From a virus (taxonomy: Duplodnaviria > Caudoviricetes): a DNA stretch of 64,000 nt. Location of the stretch: IMG/VR virus record IMGVR_UViG_3300010203_000021, positions 7,014-71,013 of that record. One strand, given 5' to 3'. Positions 41,064 to 47,844 of the stretch are shown piece by piece; position 1 is the first letter of the stretch; each line of letters opens with the position of its first letter. The position numbers and the translations under genes were made by a program. Under the pieces are notes generated by a model. It ran no database searches, was not told the DNA's origin, and was given only the letters and a program-made list of their open reading frames with translations.

Positions 41064-41291
41064 TTGAAGCCGGAAAAAGTTCGCATGACTGTTTCGCTCC
41101 CGGTTGATGCAACCGAGTTCTTGGACCGGGAGGCTGAAAAAGACTGCACATCGCGCAATGCGCAGATCGTCCGCTCTATTCGTGAGCGGATGGAAAAGGT
41201 GACGGCGGGGGAAGCTTTGGTCGGCGAAGCCCCGCCGTCACTGAACGAAACCACCGCCCTGGCAAGCGGTGTCCCTAACCACCACGGTTGA
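41064..41291 (+). CDS. Arc-like ribbon-helix-helix protein
   Basis: VRMTVSLPVDATEFLDREAEKDCTSRNAQIVRSIRE. Confidence 0.82.
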   Translation: MKPEKVRMTVSLPVDATEFLDREAEKDCTSRNAQIVRSIRERMEKVTAGEALVGEAPPSLNETTALASGVPNHHG

Positions 41292-41304
41292 TGAAGGAAC
41301 CGAA

Positions 41305-42048
41305 ATGGCTGACTTGATGAATACAGGCGAACCAGCCGCCATGTCGAGCCGCGAAATTGCGACTTTGACCGGCAAACAGCACAAGAACGTGTTGCGCGAC
41401 ATTCGCGACATGGTGACGGCAGTTTACGGTGCTGAAATCGATGGCTCAGATTTGAGCCATGAACAAATTCAAGGGGTTGCGTGGGAGCGCGATGACCGAG
41501 GCTATCTCGCCGTCGTTCATCTGGACAAATCGAACACGCTCACGCTCTTGACCGGCTATGACGCCAAGGCGCGCAAACGCGTCATTGATCGTTGGCAGCA
41601 GCTTGAAGAACAGGTTCGCGCCCCGGCTTTCGACCCCGCAAAGTTTTTGGAAAGCCCCGCCGCCATGCGCGGCCTGCTCCTGACCTACACCGAGAAGGTT
41701 ATTGCCCTTCAGGGAGAAGTCGAAGAGATGCGGCCCGCTGTGCAGGCCCTTGATCTGATCGCCGGGACGGATGGCAGTATGTCCATTACGGAAGCCGCCA
41801 AAAACCTTCAGGTGCAGCCCAAGCAGCTTTTCGGATGGATGCGCTCCAACGAGTGGATCTATCGCCGCCCCGGCGCCGCCGCCGACCTCGCATATCAGGC
41901 CCGGCTTCTGACCGGCTATCTCGAACACAAGATGACGACGGTCACGCGGAGCGACGGCAGCGAGAAATCCGTGACGCAAGTCCGCGTGACCCCCAAAGGG
42001 CTGGCGCGGCTGGCTAAGGAATTCTCGCAGGAACGTGCGCTGGCCTGA
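41305..42048 (+). CDS. Rha-N / KilAC (ANT) antirepressor
   Basis: MSSREIATLTGKQHKNVLRDI; LTGYDAK.R.RVIDRWQQLE; SITEAAK.L...PK.LF.WM; QVRVTPKGLARL. Confidence 0.93.
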   Translation: MADLMNTGEPAAMSSREIATLTGKQHKNVLRDIRDMVTAVYGAEIDGSDLSHEQIQGVAWERDDRGYLAVVHLDKSNTLTLLTGYDAKARKRVIDRWQQLEEQVRAPAFDPAKFLESPAAMRGLLLTYTEKVIALQGEVEEMRPAVQALDLIAGTDGSMSITEAAKNLQVQPKQLFGWMRSNEWIYRRPGAAADLAYQARLLTGYLEHKMTTVTRSDGSEKSVTQVRVTPKGLARLAKEFSQERALA

Positions 42049-42843: not shown

Positions 42844-43599
42844 ATGGCAAAGAAAGATGAAGGACAGGCTGAAATCACGATTCAGCCGTTGAAACGCGCG
42901 ACCGTGAAGCTTCGGATTATTGGCACGACGCCGTTGTTTCAAAACCGAATGGCCGAAAAAGCGCGCCAGCAATTGCTGGTCGGTGGCGGCAAGAAGACCA
43001 GGGCGGACAAGGCTGGGATCAAGCACGATCCGTTTACCGAATTCCGCGCCAGCGCTGAGACGCTTCCGTCCGGTCCGACCGCGCTCGGGCTGCGCGTCGT
43101 CGCCGTCAAGGCGGCTATGTGCACAGCGGCATTGGAAACGCCCGGGCTGACGAAGACGTCGGCGCAACGCCTGCTTTATCTGGCCGGCGATCACTTTCCG
43201 CTCTACGGAACGCCGCAACTTCGATGCGACGTGGTGCGCAGCGCCGACATCAACAAGACCCCTGACATCAGGACGCGCGCGTTCCTGCCGCGGTGGGGCG
43301 CCGAGATCGAGGTTTCATTCATCACGCCGCAACTCAGTCTGTCGTCGGTCATCGCTCTGCTTTGCAACGCGGGCGTTCTGGTCGGCGTCGGTGATTTTCG
43401 CCAAGAAAAAGGAAAAGGCGCGTTCGGCAGCTTCCGCGTTCTTGGAGACGGGGAGGAAGACGACGAATGGGACGATCTCGTCGCCAACCACGGGCGAGAG
43501 GCACAACTCGCGGCGCTCAAGAACCCGGAATTCGCCAACGATGAAACCGAAGAACTGATGCACTTCTTTGCGTCCGAAGTGAAGCGGAGGGCTGCGTGA
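42844..43599 (+). CDS. RAMP/Cas7-like (Vipr-type) RNA-binding protein, 251 aa
   Basis: N-terminal strand KLRIIGTTPLF; AVKAAMCTAA helix; RTRAFLPRWGAEIEVSF; C-terminal Gly-rich loop AGVLVGVGDFRQEKGKGAFGSFRV; adjacent to the GGY-NN array. Confidence 0.78.
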   Translation: MAKKDEGQAEITIQPLKRATVKLRIIGTTPLFQNRMAEKARQQLLVGGGKKTRADKAGIKHDPFTEFRASAETLPSGPTALGLRVVAVKAAMCTAALETPGLTKTSAQRLLYLAGDHFPLYGTPQLRCDVVRSADINKTPDIRTRAFLPRWGAEIEVSFITPQLSLSSVIALLCNAGVLVGVGDFRQEKGKGAFGSFRVLGDGEEDDEWDDLVANHGREAQLAALKNPEFANDETEELMHFFASEVKRRAA

Positions 43600-44102
43600 T
43601 GGCTACGTTCACCAAAGAGCTTCGGCAGCAGATCGTCGAGGATTTCGCCCGGCGCCATAACGGGCTCTACGACCCGGCGCTGTTCCTTCAGGAGGTCAAG
43701 GACGCCGGAAAGGAGCATCCTGCGCATTCATGGTTCACATGGAATGACATCGACGCGGCGGCGGCTCACCGGCTGGATCAAGCGCGTGATTTCGCGCGCG
43801 GTCTGAAAGTCGTTTTCCGCATCGAACAGGTTACCGGCCCGAGTCAGGTGCGCGTGCATCAGGTTGAGGCGCCGTTGGTCCACAGTCCGCGAGAAGGGCG
43901 CAAGGATGGCGGCGGTTACCGATTGACCGTCCCGACGCTGGACGATCATCTGCACGAACTCGCTGGCCAAGCGGCCGACGATCTTCGCGCGTGGGCTGCG
44001 CGCTACAAGGCGCCGCTGACAGCCGCCGGTATTGCTGACGGGAAAATCGAGGCGATCATCGCAAAACTCGAACTGCTTGCTGAAGACCGTAAATCGGCCT
44101 GA
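43596..44102 (+). CDS. Accessory protein coupled to the RAMP-like gene
   Basis: GTGA overlap; YDPALFLQEV...HPAHSWFTWND.DAAAAHRLDQARDFARGLKV. Confidence 0.8.
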   Translation: MMATFTKELRQQIVEDFARRHNGLYDPALFLQEVKDAGKEHPAHSWFTWNDIDAAAAHRLDQARDFARGLKVVFRIEQVTGPSQVRVHQVEAPLVHSPREGRKDGGGYRLTVPTLDDHLHELAGQAADDLRAWAARYKAPLTAAGIADGKIEAIIAKLELLAEDRKSA

Positions 44103-44136
44103 GCAAGAATAGCCAGCGCTCTGCCGCAAGGGCGCT

Positions 44137-44504
44137 GGTTTGGCACGGAGCGGCATGCGTGGCGAGGCTGGGTTTGGTCAGGCTGGGCGAGATGAGGCGC
44201 GGCAGGGCAGGCGTGGCTAGGATAGGCGATGCAGGGCATGGCGCGTCTCGGTCAGGCAGGCAAGGCAAGGAATGACCCGGCGCGGCAAGTCATGGCGTGG
44301 CACGGCGAGGCAGGCGAGGTCTGGATTGGCGTGGAAGCGCGTGGATCGGTTAGGCGTGGCAGGCGCGGCGTCGCGAGGCGTGGCTAGGCTAGGCAAGGCC
44401 CGGATAGGCGTGGCGAGCCAAGGCAGGCGAGGCTTGGCGCGGCTGGGCAAGCCAAGGCACGGTAGGGCTTGGTTCGGAGGGGCGAGACCCGGTTGGGCAG
44501 GTAA
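44137..44504 (+). repeat. GGY-NN pentamer array (candidate guide RNA locus): 68 pentamers plus 7 GGCA tetramers
   Basis: Exact parse with no leftover bases (68x5 + 7x4 = 368 bp); bracketed by hairpins at 44111-44140 and 44514-44536. Confidence 0.93.
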
Positions 44505-44706
44505 CCCTTTTACGGGGAGCGCCACTGGCGTTCCCCATCCCCCCATAAGCAGCAGGAACACGCCATAAACGGTTTTTCTCAAGTGTAATAAATGACCAAA
44601 ATAATGTGCTCCGCAAGGCAGTAGGTGTATCCAGCGGGCCGCATCTGATTGACGGGTTCCGTCAGACCGTGCATGTGATCATTATTTGCTTGCACGGAGA
44701 TTTCAG

Positions 44707-45171
44707 ATGAAAACCAGCGCGAAAGTTTTGCTGATCGCTGTCGCAACCGTGGCGTTTTGGGGTGTGGCCGCGCCGTTTATCGCCAAGATACCGGCCTCCG
44801 AGCCGCACCCGTCAAATGTAAAAATCTATCAAATTACCGCAGATCACCCGCAATTTGGATCGCTCGACCTCGACGGCTGGCTCGATGTTTCCGCATGGGG
44901 TTCATCGACGAAGGCAGCTGTTTTGGCTCAGTTGAGAGACCCCGATTCCGCGAAGTTCTCAGAGATCTTTGCTGTTGGGGACAGAAAAGTCGGCAAAGCG
45001 TTCCCAGTAATTATTTGCGGTAAAGTCAATGCAAAAAATGGATTTGGCGGCTTCACTGGGGATCAACCATTTGTTCGCTTCATGGCGACCGGGGCTGTAA
45101 CGCTCGAAAAGCAGACAGCGATTAAAGAATGGAACGCTTATTGCGCTGGTGGGCACAAAGATCCAGCGTAA
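44707..45171 (+). CDS. Exported/membrane-anchored accessory protein
   Basis: N-terminal hydrophobic signal; QLRDPDSAKF...CGKVNAKNGFGGFTG.QPF; lower GC. Confidence 0.8.
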   Translation: MKTSAKVLLIAVATVAFWGVAAPFIAKIPASEPHPSNVKIYQITADHPQFGSLDLDGWLDVSAWGSSTKAAVLAQLRDPDSAKFSEIFAVGDRKVGKAFPVIICGKVNAKNGFGGFTGDQPFVRFMATGAVTLEKQTAIKEWNAYCAGGHKDPA

Positions 45172-45194
45172 TAGCGAGCGCCATTCACGACACC

Positions 45195-45220
45195 AAGCCG
45201 CCCGGAGGCGGCTTTTTCTT
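45195..45220 (+). terminator. Rho-independent terminator
   Basis: AAGCCGCC-CGGA-GGCGGCTT followed by a T-run. Confidence 0.88.
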
Positions 45221-47844
45221 TGGCCTTGGGAGCGTGGCACTTGGACAATGACGTCTCGGTCAAATTTACCGCTGATGCAAGCGACCTGAGCCGCGGCGCG
45301 CAGCAGGCGCAACAGGCGGTCGAAAATGTGGGGCGCAGCGCTAGCGACGTCGCCAAGCAGTTCGGAAAGCTTACGCCTGAAATCAAGGCGAGCATCGACA
45401 AGGTCGGTGACGCCGCTTGGAATTTCGGTCCTTGGTCGGGCAGCCAAGTCCAGATGGCGCAATTCGGCGTTCAGGGGCTCGTTGCCGCCTTCGGCGCCGT
45501 GGGCGCTTCTGGCGTCGCCGCCGCTACGCTTATTGGTGCCGCGTTCACCGCCATACTCCACCATGTCACCTCGTCCGTGGTCGATCTTGGCGTCGAAATG
45601 GACAAGTTGGCGAACAATTTTAATCAATCGCTGGGCGGAATGGGAGGCCTTGCTTCGTTCTCCGTCCGTGCCGGTGCCGACACCAAGGACGTCGCCACAG
45701 CATTCGGAAAGCTGCAGAAGAACGCCAACGACGGCGATGACGATACAGAAAAAGCCCTCAAGGCCATTGGCCTGCGGATGGACGAGATCAAGGGCAAAAA
45801 CTTCAACCAATTGCTTGAAACTTTCGCCCGAACTTTTTCGGGCACTGCTGACTCCGCAAACAAATTGGCGGCGGCGAACGCCCTGCTTGGCGAGGATCTG
45901 GCTTCAAAGCTGTTGCCCGAACTGAACCGAGGCGTGGACCATGTCCGCGATATGGAGGCCGCAGCCACGCGCGCAGGGGTCTCGCTCGACCAGGGAATGC
46001 GGGTTAAGATCCTTGGGACGAACGAGAGCATCCAAAGGGTCAAGGACGCCACTCATGAACTGAGCATGGCGTTTTCCGGGGTTTCCGTCACCATTTACAG
46101 CATATTCAAGCCGGCCATCGACGGCGTGATTGAAGGCTTTGGCGACCTGATCCGCAATATCGCCAGCGGCGTCGAATGGCTTAATCAGGCCGCGCGCACA
46201 AGCGGCGCTTTTCATGAGGCCATGAACCTCCTGGCGGGGGCAGTCAAAGTCGTCGTGACCGCGATCGGATTGCTGATCGATGCGATTGAGGCGTTGGTCG
46301 CGCTTGGGGTAGGCTCGGCGTCTATTATATCAGACGCATTTCACGGCATGGCCAATGTGATCGCCGCCGTGTTCCTCGATATAGCGGTCAACGGGCAAGC
46401 CGCTTTCACCGGATTGGCGAATGCTGCATCGGCAGTGACCACGTCAATCGGCAAAATGTTTGACGATGTCGGGGGCGTGATCAAAAACGCGCTGAGCGGC
46501 GACGTGAGCGGCGCCTCAGCGGCTTATGGGCAATTGAAGGATCATGCTGCCTCGGCGGCCGCTGGCATTAGTTCGGCATTTTCCGACATGCCTGGCATGA
46601 AGAACACTGACCGCGCCGTGCAAGACATGGGCGCGCGGCTCAAGAAAGACTATGCCGACACAGCATCAGGGGTCGTAGAGGTCGCGAAGCAGACCGTCGC
46701 ACAACTCAAGACAATCTGGGGTGACGGCGCGTCCAAGCCCCAGGCGTCCGGGCTTAAGAACGCGAGCGCAATCCCTAAGGACGGCAGCGGCGGCAAGGCT
46801 GACACTGCCCAGCAGCAGGCCGACATTAAGGCGATCGAGGATCAAATCCGAGCGGTGCAAACCACCGAACGCGCGAAAGCGGCGCTCTATGCCGATGCAG
46901 TCCGCATCTACCAGATGACGGAAGAACAGAAAGTCGCCGCGACCCGCGTCGCCGCGAACGAGGCCTATCAGGCGCAGAGGGCGCTTCTCGAAAAAGAGGC
47001 TCAGATCGCCGGCTTATCCCTGGCGCAGAAACAATCGGTCGAGGACAAGAAAAAGGCCCTCGACATCAAATATGCTGCCGAAAGCCAGCGTCTCGCGATT
47101 CAGGCCGCAGAGGCCTCCATGCGGCCTTGGACGCAAATGGTAGACGCCATGTCATCTTCCATGAGCAGCGGCATCATGGGGATGATCCGTGGCACGCAAA
47201 ATTTCCGCCAAGTCCTTGGAAGTTTGACCAGCGCCATCATTCAGTCGTTCGTCAACATGGGCGTTCAGATGGTCGCTAATTGGGCGAAGCAGGAGTTATT
47301 CAGCCTAGCGCTTCACCAGACCACCGAAGGGGCGAAGACTGCAGCTTCGATCACTGGTGCGGCGGCGCGGAGCGGGGTTGCCGCCGGTGAGGCGTCGGCG
47401 GTTTCTCTTCCGGTTATCGGGGCCGCGATCAGAAGCATTACGGCGTCGGCGGCCGAGACCTTTGCCGGCGTGTTTGGCTTCCTCTCGCCTGTCATGGGGC
47501 CGGCGGCGGCGGCGCCCGCTGCAGCGGCGCAAAGCACGGTTGCGGCAGTCGCCGCTTTCGACGTCGGGGCCTGGAGCATCAATCAGGATCAGCTCGCAAT
47601 GGTCCACAAAGGCGAAATGGTGATGACCGCTGGACAATCCAAAGGGCTGCGAAGTGTCATCAACGCGGCACAGAGCGCCTACGGCGGCGCTGGCGGGAGC
47701 GCCAGGAGCGGCGACACTTACAACGGTGACATTCACGTGCACGCCACCACGGCGGGGATCGAGGACCTTGTGAACGCAAACCCGAAAGGCTTTGTCAATG
47801 CGATGCGGCGTCTGCAGCGCCATGGCCATTTGAAATTTGCATGA
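45220..47844 (+). CDS. Tail tape measure protein
   Basis: 874 aa, Ala/Gly-rich helical; precedes the distal tail gene. Exact start uncertain (TTG ~45220-45241). Confidence 0.9.
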   Translation: MALGAWHLDNDVSVKFTADASDLSRGAQQAQQAVENVGRSASDVAKQFGKLTPEIKASIDKVGDAAWNFGPWSGSQVQMAQFGVQGLVAAFGAVGASGVAAATLIGAAFTAILHHVTSSVVDLGVEMDKLANNFNQSLGGMGGLASFSVRAGADTKDVATAFGKLQKNANDGDDDTEKALKAIGLRMDEIKGKNFNQLLETFARTFSGTADSANKLAAANALLGEDLASKLLPELNRGVDHVRDMEAAATRAGVSLDQGMRVKILGTNESIQRVKDATHELSMAFSGVSVTIYSIFKPAIDGVIEGFGDLIRNIASGVEWLNQAARTSGAFHEAMNLLAGAVKVVVTAIGLLIDAIEALVALGVGSASIISDAFHGMANVIAAVFLDIAVNGQAAFTGLANAASAVTTSIGKMFDDVGGVIKNALSGDVSGASAAYGQLKDHAASAAAGISSAFSDMPGMKNTDRAVQDMGARLKKDYADTASGVVEVAKQTVAQLKTIWGDGASKPQASGLKNASAIPKDGSGGKADTAQQQADIKAIEDQIRAVQTTERAKAALYADAVRIYQMTEEQKVAATRVAANEAYQAQRALLEKEAQIAGLSLAQKQSVEDKKKALDIKYAAESQRLAIQAAEASMRPWTQMVDAMSSSMSSGIMGMIRGTQNFRQVLGSLTSAIIQSFVNMGVQMVANWAKQELFSLALHQTTEGAKTAASITGAAARSGVAAGEASAVSLPVIGAAIRSITASAAETFAGVFGFLSPVMGPAAAAPAAAAQSTVAAVAAFDVGAWSINQDQLAMVHKGEMVMTAGQSKGLRSVINAAQSAYGGAGGSARSGDTYNGDIHVHATTAGIEDLVNANPKGFVNAMRRLQRHGHLKFA

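What the first reader, a model, noticed from the sequence alone, without database searches (positions are those of the whole stretch)
44152..44499. GGCA tetramers divide the array into six guide-sized segments with a readable dinucleotide code
GGCA occurs at 44152, 44206, 44255, 44309, 44358, 44422 and 44496, each time shifting the 5-nt register by one. NN strings: S1 (44156-44205) GT GA TG TT CA TG GA GA GC AG; S2 (44210-44254) GT TA TA GA AG AT GC TC CA; S3 (44259-44308) AA AA AT CC GC AA AT GT AC GA; S4 (44313-44357) GA CT TT GT AG GT TC TA GT; S5 (44362-44421) GC GT GA GT TA TA AA CC TA GT GA AA; S6 (44426-44495) GA TT GC TG AA AA AC AG TT TC GG GA CC TG. The segments carry 9-14 dinucleotides (18-28 informative nt), the information content of a guide, and all differ, so this is not slippage-generated VNTR. 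Inference: the tetramers are processing sites or filament boundaries.
Basis: partly seen in the sequence, partly recalled or inferred. Interest (0 to 1): 0.85.

Follow-up and report, generated by a model that had tools for sequence, protein, structure and literature searches.

The report
Phage VIPR guide-RNA array, staggered type
The five-base repeat tract cut by four-base GGCA steps is the guide-RNA array of a prophage VIPR system, a CRISPR-related, RNA-guided DNA-silencing device first described in 2026 preprints, so the feature is real and was read well but is a new example of a known kind.

Summary
Window 44152-44499 holds 64 GGYNN pentamers cut by seven GGCA tetramers into segments of 10, 9, 10, 9, 12 and 14 units. 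Each tetramer shifts the phase by one base.

The array is the vrRNA array of a VIPR system (Viral Interference Programmable Repeat; bioRxiv 10.64898/2026.04.26.720920 and .720927). The gene at 42844-43599 encodes a Vipr protein: a family profile hits PDB 36pp 'SUSP1 Vipr protein' at E=1.3e-30, and the model has a Csm3/Cas7-like fold. The coupled 168-aa gene is a candidate accessory (vap) gene.

The 4-nt step fits the 'staggered vrRNA arrays' in that preprint's fig. S18 legend, an architecture the paper did not list as confirmed by RNA sequencing.

- Across 50 punctuated arrays from phage contigs, 187 of 224 GGCN steps are GGCA.
- Step spacing peaks at 7-12 units.
- Close relatives keep GGCA with entirely different NN content. 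A more distant clade uses GGCG-GTC.
- One relative's GGCA-bounded guide spells the last codons of rival vipr genes, including this window's (16/18).

I found no credible target for the six guides here, and RNA ends could not be tested. This scan has already met VIPR arrays in at least 37 other genomes.

The parts
42844..43599 (+). vipr gene (251 aa), a minimal RAMP/Cas7-like protein that reads GGYNN units
   Evidence: A family profile (A1) hits PDB 36pp 'SUSP1 Vipr protein' at E=1.3e-30. The AF2 model has pLDDT 87 and its top Foldseek hits are Csm3/Cas7. SUSP1 contact residues H17/R138/D177/W178/R179 align with N34/R145/D184/F185/R186. Homologues flank such arrays in 67 of about 90 viral loci, with one exception on the G-rich strand.
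43596..44102 (+). candidate vipr-accessory (vap) gene, 168 aa, overlapping the vipr stop codon
   Evidence: The family (A2) recurs next to vipr and the array in 23 loci. The model has pLDDT 85 with no informative fold match. It is unrelated to the SUSP1-type vap of phage HY02 (hhalign probability 0.3%).
44111..44140 (+). 12-bp hairpin directly upstream of the array
   Evidence: RNA fold -22.5 kcal/mol. Hairpins occupy the same position in relatives L126, L127 and L132.
44137..44151 (+). three leader units GGTTT GGCAC GGAGC before the first GGCA
   Evidence: Parser output. Relatives share a 'GGCAC (GGNNC) GGCA' leader: L124, L126, L130, L131.
44152..44155 (+). GGCA step 1 (start of guide S1)
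44156..44205 (+). guide segment S1, 10 units
44206..44209 (+). GGCA step 2
44210..44254 (+). guide segment S2, 9 units
44255..44258 (+). GGCA step 3
44259..44308 (+). guide segment S3, 10 units
44309..44312 (+). GGCA step 4
44313..44357 (+). guide segment S4, 9 units
44358..44361 (+). GGCA step 5
44362..44421 (+). guide segment S5, 12 units
44422..44425 (+). GGCA step 6
44426..44495 (+). guide segment S6, 14 units
44496..44499 (+). GGCA step 7 (end of the array)
44514..44536 (+). 10-bp GC-rich hairpin after the array, a possible 3' cap or terminator (no T-run)
   Evidence: RNA fold. Relatives end their arrays with GC-rich hairpins, several followed by T-runs. The consensus scan calls no terminator here.
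43576..43601 (+). predicted target site of a rival prophage's guide, across the vipr stop and vap start
   Evidence: [quoted passage not shown]

Best explanation
This is the guide-RNA (vrRNA) array of a prophage VIPR system of the 'staggered' architecture. The tract is transcribed on the + strand with, or just after, vipr and the accessory gene. Vipr protomers coat the RNA one per GGYNN unit. They bury each GGY and present each NN dinucleotide. The NN series pairs with double-stranded DNA that carries the same dinucleotides separated by one skipped base, and this silences the target, typically a gene of a rival phage or satellite. Each 4-nt GGCA unit leaves only one base between a pyrimidine and the next GG. 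A protomer cannot span that gap, so the filament register breaks there, giving six separate guides of 9-14 units. Shown here: the anatomy, the homology of the protein, conservation of the step and of its spacing, and one relative's guide whose match is confined between two steps. Taken from the preprints: filament structure, the pairing rule and silencing. Inferred: that RNA is cut, or filaments end, exactly at GGCA in this array.
For: The protein is a Vipr: a family profile hits PDB 36pp at E=1.3e-30 across residues 2-188. The model has a RAMP fold with Csm3/Cas7 as top hits, and the thumb Arg and the G-loop D-[W/F]-R are conserved.

The array has 64 GGYNN units with hypervariable NN. It is non-coding, since no ORF spans it.

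Vipr homologues flank such arrays in 67 of about 90 viral loci, with one exception on the G-rich strand.

Across 50 punctuated arrays, 187 of 224 GGCN steps are GGCA (binomial p about 8e-41 against a 0.40 background) and 186 are followed by GGC. Step spacing peaks at 7-12 units, close to the published 9-16 repeats per vrRNA.

Cluster F mycobacteriophages show the same grammar. Alphaproteobacterial relatives with 65-78% identical Vipr keep GGCA while every NN differs. A clade at 43-54% identity uses GGCG followed by GTC.

The L126 guide lies exactly between two GGCA steps. It spells E-V-K-R-R-A-A-stop of rival vipr genes at 17/18 or 16/18, with the skipped base on the wobble position, and the match does not extend past either step.

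The preprint's fig. S18 legend describes staggered arrays with vrRNAs meeting at 1-nt overlapping positions.
Against: No credible target was found for any of the six guides. The exact S1 hit in L142 puts the skipped base on codon position 2 in a contig of about 49% GC, and is best read as chance. S2-S5 whole and part of S6 gave no exact hit in IMG/VR, and parts of S5 and S6 gave none in metagenomes. S6 gave nothing at up to 3 mismatches in 401 genomes of the order, and S5 nothing in 121 Bradyrhizobium genomes. No RNA data could be obtained. The preprint lists sRNA-seq confirmation only for ribozyme-interspersed and single-vrRNA systems, not for staggered arrays. Eighteen of the 64 units depart from GGY. 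H17 of SUSP1 Vipr is Asn here. I could read only the legend of fig. S18, not the figure.
Confidence: 0.85

Rival explanations
1. It is a VIPR array, but the GGCA steps are tolerated one-base deletions with no role. Guides would then be delimited otherwise, by host RNases or filament length, or a single long filament would read through.
For: No RNA ends are available for this array type. The preprint does not report experimental confirmation of staggered arrays. Short inter-step intervals of 0-3 units exist in some arrays.
Against: The step is GGCA in 187 of 224 GGCN cases (p about 8e-41), not a random loss of N. Spacing is peaked at 7-12 units instead of geometric. The step motif varies with Vipr lineage, GGCA against GGCG-GTC. 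A single-guide array in L126 is flanked by GGCA on both sides, and its target match ends at both.
Confidence: 0.08
2. It is a degenerate pentanucleotide microsatellite or VNTR made by slippage, with no sequence-specific function.
For: Tandem Repeats Finder reports low-scoring periods of 5, 10, 15 and 29 within the tract.
Against: Positions 1-3 are conserved while positions 4-5 use 15 of the 16 dinucleotides. The same grammar sits beside the same protein family in phages of Actinobacteria and Alphaproteobacteria. That protein family has a solved structure bound to exactly such RNA.
Confidence: 0.02
3. The tract acts at the DNA level or as a structural nucleic acid: a protein-binding iteron or centromere array, a G-quadruplex or R-loop former, or a C-rich Rho-loading site on the opposite strand.
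For: GG spaced every 5 nt could form two-tetrad quadruplexes, and the antisense strand is C-rich (sequence). These were my leading ideas before the protein family was identified.
Against: Orientation relative to the vipr gene is conserved in 101 of 102 cases, whether the array lies upstream or downstream, which points to a strand-specific RNA. Published cryo-EM and pull-downs show that Vipr binds the RNA. Arrays in relatives end in terminator-like hairpins.
Confidence: 0.03
4. The tract is protein-coding, a 15-nt-period pentapeptide-type repeat.
For: High-GC sequence gives spurious ORFs over parts of the tract, such as 44272-44568 on + and 44217-44582 on -.
Against: No ORF spans the array. Segment periods of 54, 49, 54, 49, 64 and 74 nt show no preference for multiples of 3. 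Arrays of 1.3-1.6 kb in other phages have no covering ORF.
Confidence: 0.01

Closest known systems
VIPR systems with 'staggered' vrRNA arrays (bioRxiv 10.64898/2026.04.26.720920, fig. S18 legend)
   Same: A lone Vipr RAMP protein plus an accessory gene in a prophage. A continuous tract of GGYNN units on the same strand. Neighbouring guides meet at a 1-nt overlap, equivalent to the 4-nt GGCA step. Guides have 9-14 units.
   Different: I found nothing that sets it apart in kind. The explicit GGCA consensus, its lineage-specific GGCG-GTC variant, the spacing distribution and the shared 'GGCAC ... GGCA' leader come from my survey. I could not find them in the text I could read ('GGCA' has 0 occurrences; the figure was not available). 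The VIPR type (I-VII) could not be assigned.
Type II VIPR of Escherichia phage SUSP1 and related Felixounaviruses (Vipr + Vap1 + vrRNAs; PDB 36pp)
   Same: Homologous Vipr protein. GGYNN units with one protomer per unit. NN-only pairing under the 1-nt-skip rule, as published. Guides of 10-12 units. Role in conflict between phages.
   Different: In the HY02 locus each vrRNA is a separate unit with its own leader, about 12-13 GGTNN units and a structured 3' tail. Here there are no tails or leaders between guides, only GGCA steps, and the units are GGC-rich. The accessory protein is unrelated. Single-sequence similarity of the Vipr proteins is marginal (E=0.057).
Class 1 CRISPR-Cas backbone (Cas7/Csm3 filament on crRNA)
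   Same: RAMP fold, glycine-rich loop and thumb. A helical protein filament on a guide RNA with periodic disruption of pairing.
   Different: There is no repeat-spacer array and there are no cas genes. The period is 5 nt with 2 pairing bases, against 6 nt with 5. Guides abut without repeats. The system is encoded by the phage, not the host.

Membership tests
VIPR system | A Vipr protein: a minimal RAMP homologous to SUSP1 Vipr | tested here: met
   Profile A1 against PDB 36pp gives E=1.3e-30 over chain residues 2-188. The model's top Foldseek hits are Csm3/Cas7 at E about 1e-4. The single sequence alone is marginal (E=0.057).
VIPR system | Residues that grip GGY in SUSP1 Vipr (H17, R138, D177, W178, R179) | tested here: met
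   Read by eye: R145, D184 and R186 are conserved, W178 is replaced by F185 (aromatic kept), and H17 by N34 (a conservative substitution shared with the close relative P0039).
VIPR system | A tandem GGYNN (YNNGG) array with conserved GGY and hypervariable NN, next to vipr on the same strand | tested here: met
   64 units: G1 in 60, G2 in 57, Y3 in 57; NN uses 15 of 16 kinds. The array starts 35 nt after the accessory gene on the + strand.
VIPR system | Guide length of about 9-16 units | tested here: met
   GGCA-bounded segments have 10, 9, 10, 9, 12 and 14 units. The published range is quoted.
VIPR system | A vipr-accessory (vap) gene | tested here: inconclusive
   A coupled 168-aa gene belongs to a family that recurs in 23 array loci. 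It is not related to the SUSP1-type vap, and its fold is not informative. I could not compare it with vap2-6.
VIPR system | Natural DNA targets that match NN under the 1-nt-skip rule | tested here: inconclusive
   No credible target for S1-S6 in the collections searched. A close relative's guide does match rival vipr genes, this window's included.
VIPR system | vrRNAs expressed and bound by Vipr | not testable with these tools
VIPR staggered-array architecture | Adjacent guides meet at a 1-nt overlap (a 4-nt unit) with no tail or ribozyme between them | tested here: met
   Seven 4-nt GGCA units, each shifting the phase by -1, and no other off-length unit. Rfam finds no ribozyme within 43000-46000.
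VIPR type II (SUSP1-like) | Each vrRNA ends in a conserved structured 3' tail (pseudoknot) | tested here: not met
   No inter-guide tails here, whereas the HY02 locus shows leader, repeats and tail for each vrRNA. So this is not type II.
CRISPR-Cas | A repeat-spacer array with cas genes (adaptation and effector modules) | tested here: not met
   No direct-repeat/spacer structure. PADLOC gives no hit for the four neighbouring proteins, and Pfam none for the vipr or accessory gene.

The most novel reading that the evidence does not exclude
The 4-nt step is a lineage-specific punctuation signal read by the Vipr filament itself: GGCA in this clade, in actinophages and in many others, GGCG-GTC in a sister clade. 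It would let tail-less, ribozyme-less arrays mature into discrete guides without a dedicated processing enzyme. In addition, these prophages may aim guides at the vipr-vap junction of rivals while protecting their own copy by synonymous Arg-codon swaps, so that this window's VIPR is itself a target.
Probability: 0.4. Interest if true: 0.5.

Novelty: new member of a known kind. Interest (0 to 1): 0.3.

Why it matters
VIPR is a very recently described RNA-guided system, proposed as the ancestor of the CRISPR RAMP proteins. This locus adds a clear alphaproteobacterial prophage example of the least-tested array architecture, the staggered type.

It also comes with comparative rules that could guide annotation and experiments:
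- the step is GGCA or a clade-specific variant
- spacing is 7-12 units
- relatives share a leader before the first step
- arrays end in a hairpin

The one decoded guide in a relative supports two published ideas. VIPR systems target each other, and self-targeting is avoided, here by synonymous recoding. None of this changes the known picture. It refines it.

Tried and rejected
Before the protein family was identified I considered several alternatives: a TRAP-like ring-binding RNA, a G-quadruplex or R-loop former, a Rho-loading site on the antisense strand, a Chi-like array and a pac or centromere site. I dropped all of them once the flanking family hit PDB 36pp.

- **Rfam:** only a sub-threshold P9 match at 45134-45216, outside the array.
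- **Literature:** 'mycobacteriophage + pentanucleotide' and 'GGCNN' gave nothing relevant.
- **Neighbouring proteins:** BLASTP between the window's 168-aa or 261-aa proteins and Quico gp56 found no similarity. The real homologues in Quico are the genes after the array.
- **Accessory protein fold:** Foldseek and VIA-align returned only generic helical-hairpin matches.
- **Self-targets:** none in the 71-kb contig above shuffled controls.
- **Target searches:** negative or chance for S1-S6.
- **All segments against all fetched loci:** no better than order-shuffled controls overall.
- **Near-identical contig L143:** the same element, 0 mismatches over 600 nt, so no turnover information.
- **Other:** The genome search by family failed because the window is a virus record.
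- **GGCAG as an extra 'AG' guide unit:** reading the step this way is not supported by the one decoded guide, which matches 0 of 2 at that position in the three of the four targets I read.

Full report
**1. The observation.** The tract downstream of the 168-aa ORF is visibly 5-nt periodic. GGCA lies at all seven stated coordinates, and each one moves the GGC phase by one base. Of the 64 pentamers, 60 have G at position 1, 57 have G at position 2 and 57 have C or T at position 3. Positions 4-5 use 15 of the 16 dinucleotides and are 59% A+T, in a window that is 38% A+T. The periodicity score is 44 here and 9 or less elsewhere in the window. A parser that may choose units of 3-7 nt recovers seven 4-nt units, all GGCA, and no other off-length unit. 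Nine more GGCA strings are ordinary in-phase GGCAN units, so the mark is the 4-nt unit, not the string.

**2. Setting.** The window is a prophage. An Rha/KilAC antirepressor lies at 41269-42048. It is followed by unknown ORFs, the array and a small signal-peptide protein, then by the tape measure, DUF2460 and hub genes. A 12-bp hairpin (44111-44140) precedes the array, and a 10-bp GC hairpin (44514-44536) follows it.

**3. The same element in distant phages.** A low-stringency DNA search with the region hit only the array, in 26 records of Cluster F mycobacteriophages (Cheoctovirus). There it lies in an intergenic gap after an antirepressor gene. Those arrays have the same grammar, GGCA steps included. 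I parsed 108 arrays in 90 loci. Of these, 50 are punctuated by 4-nt units and the rest run unbroken. Arrays of 1.3-1.6 kb have no covering ORF, so the tracts are non-coding.

**4. The associated proteins.** I clustered the ORFs flanking these arrays. One family of about 200 aa lies next to arrays in 67 of about 90 loci. In 101 of 102 cases it is on the array's G-rich strand, whether it is upstream or downstream. The window's member is 42814/42844-43599. Quico gp57 and Brocalys gp45 also belong to the family. A second family, to which window 43596-44102 belongs, is present in 23 loci, usually between the first gene and the array. The first family has more than 2,200 members, all listed as 'hypothetical' and none with a Pfam domain.

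**5. Identification.** A profile of the first family hits PDB entry 36pp, 'SUSP1 Vipr protein', at E=1.3e-30. That name led to three 2026 preprints on VIPR systems. According to them:
- Vipr is a minimal RAMP protein.
- vrRNAs consist of 9-16 YNNGG (GGYNN) repeats.
- One protomer binds each repeat, buries the GGY and presents the NN.
- The NN series pairs with double-stranded DNA, skipping one target base per unit.
- The result is transcriptional silencing of rival phages or satellites.

My AF2 model of the window protein (pLDDT 87) finds Csm3/Cas7 chains as its top hits. The published contact residues R138, D177 and R179 are conserved as R145, D184 and R186. W178 is replaced by Phe and H17 by Asn.

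**6. The GGCA steps.** The first preprint names 'staggered arrays with overlapping vrRNAs'. The fig. S18 legend says that individual vrRNAs derive from 1-nt overlapping positions, and that the end of one marks the start of the next. A GGCA followed by GGC is exactly such a one-base overlap of two pentamers. The paper states that sRNA-seq confirmed the ribozyme-interspersed and single-vrRNA architectures, and does not say this for the staggered type. The string 'GGCA' does not occur in its text.

My survey adds the following:
- 187 of 224 GGCN steps are GGCA (p about 8e-41 against a 0.40 background), and 186 are followed by GGC.
- The number of units between steps peaks at 7-12.
- Relatives with 65-78% identical Vipr (Bradyrhizobium, Microvirga, Methylobacterium, Aureimonas and others) keep GGCA while every NN differs.
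- Several of these relatives share a 'GGCAC (GGNNC) GGCA' leader.
- A clade at 43-54% identity uses GGCG followed by GTC instead.

**7. Mechanism of the step (inference).** In the published structure a protomer spans Y3, N4 and N5 of one unit and G1 and G2 of the next. At C-A-GG only one base separates the pyrimidine from the next GG. That spacing cannot be spanned in the same way, so the filament register should break there.

**8. Contrast with type II.** In the Felixounavirus HY02 locus each vrRNA is a separate unit with a leader, 12-13 GGTNN units and a structured tail. The window has one continuous tract without tails. Its accessory protein is unrelated to the HY02 vap. I could not assign the VIPR type.

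**9. Targets.** I found no self-target above shuffled controls. Exact 1-nt-skip patterns gave a single hit, for S1 in L142. There the skipped base falls on codon position 2, in a contig of about 49% GC. The preprint reports that real targets place the skip on the wobble position, so I read this hit as chance. All the other scans were empty. Targets were not found in what I searched, which is not evidence that they do not exist.

**10. One decoded guide in a relative.** I scanned all GGCA-bounded segments against all fetched loci. Overall they matched no better than order-shuffled controls. One case stands out. The single guide of the Microvirga zambiensis prophage (L126) lies between two GGCA steps. 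Its NN series reads GA GT AA CG AG GC GC TA TT, which spells the codons for E-V-K-R-R-A-A-stop. It matches the 3' end of vipr at 17/18 in L123 and L128. It matches at 16/18 in L132 and in this window, at 43576-43601. Every skipped base falls on the wobble position. L126's own vipr encodes the same peptide but with the two Arg codons swapped, which gives only 14/18. The match does not continue across either step. I estimate about 0.014 chance hits of this quality for segments of 9 or more units in that 293-kb space (my calculation). This agrees with the published reports of guides aimed at the 3' end of rival vipr genes, and of self-match scores that are lower than match scores to rival phages.

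**11. Verdict.** The element is a new member of a known kind that has so far been described only in preprints. Other agents of this scan have reported VIPR arrays in at least 37 genomes and the GGCA grammar in at least 8. I treat those notes as leads, not as evidence.

Noticed in passing
window 43576-43601: This window's vipr stop / accessory-gene start is a 16/18 match, with the skipped base on the wobble position, to a guide of a Microvirga zambiensis prophage (L126 4777-4821). L126's own copy avoids the match through swapped Arg codons.
   Followed up: yes
L135-L140 (Vipr 43-54% identical): A sister clade punctuates its arrays with GGCG followed by GTCNN instead of GGCA followed by GGCNN, so the boundary motif varies with the Vipr lineage.
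   Followed up: partly
L126 4768-4842, L131 4763-4823, L133 4753-4995, L136 4798-4995: Several relatives carry a second, short array between vipr and the accessory gene. In the window the two genes overlap and there is a single array.
   Followed up: partly
L130 577-750: A whole 54-nt guide, including its GGCA, is tandemly duplicated. This hints that guides can multiply as GGCA-bounded units.
   Followed up: no
window 41269-42048; L001 2171-2965; L002 2192-2971: In this alphaproteobacterial prophage and in Cluster F mycobacteriophages the VIPR module lies shortly downstream of a Rha/KilAC antirepressor gene. This could be coincidence or a shared early/immunity-region placement.
   Followed up: no
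L011, L047, L093, L109, L114 (IMG/VR): Long GGCNN arrays of 100-255 units show no 4-nt steps at all, yet have a Vipr homologue alongside. How their guides are delimited is unclear.
   Followed up: no
window 44686-45171: A 161-aa protein (phrog_2320, unknown function) whose N-terminus looks to me like a signal peptide sits between the array and the tape-measure gene, as a moron-like insert.
   Followed up: no
window 45134-45216: Sub-threshold Rfam match to Pseudomonas sRNA P9 (25 bits against a gathering score of 43), just after the 161-aa ORF. I suspect it is only a terminator hairpin.
   Followed up: no
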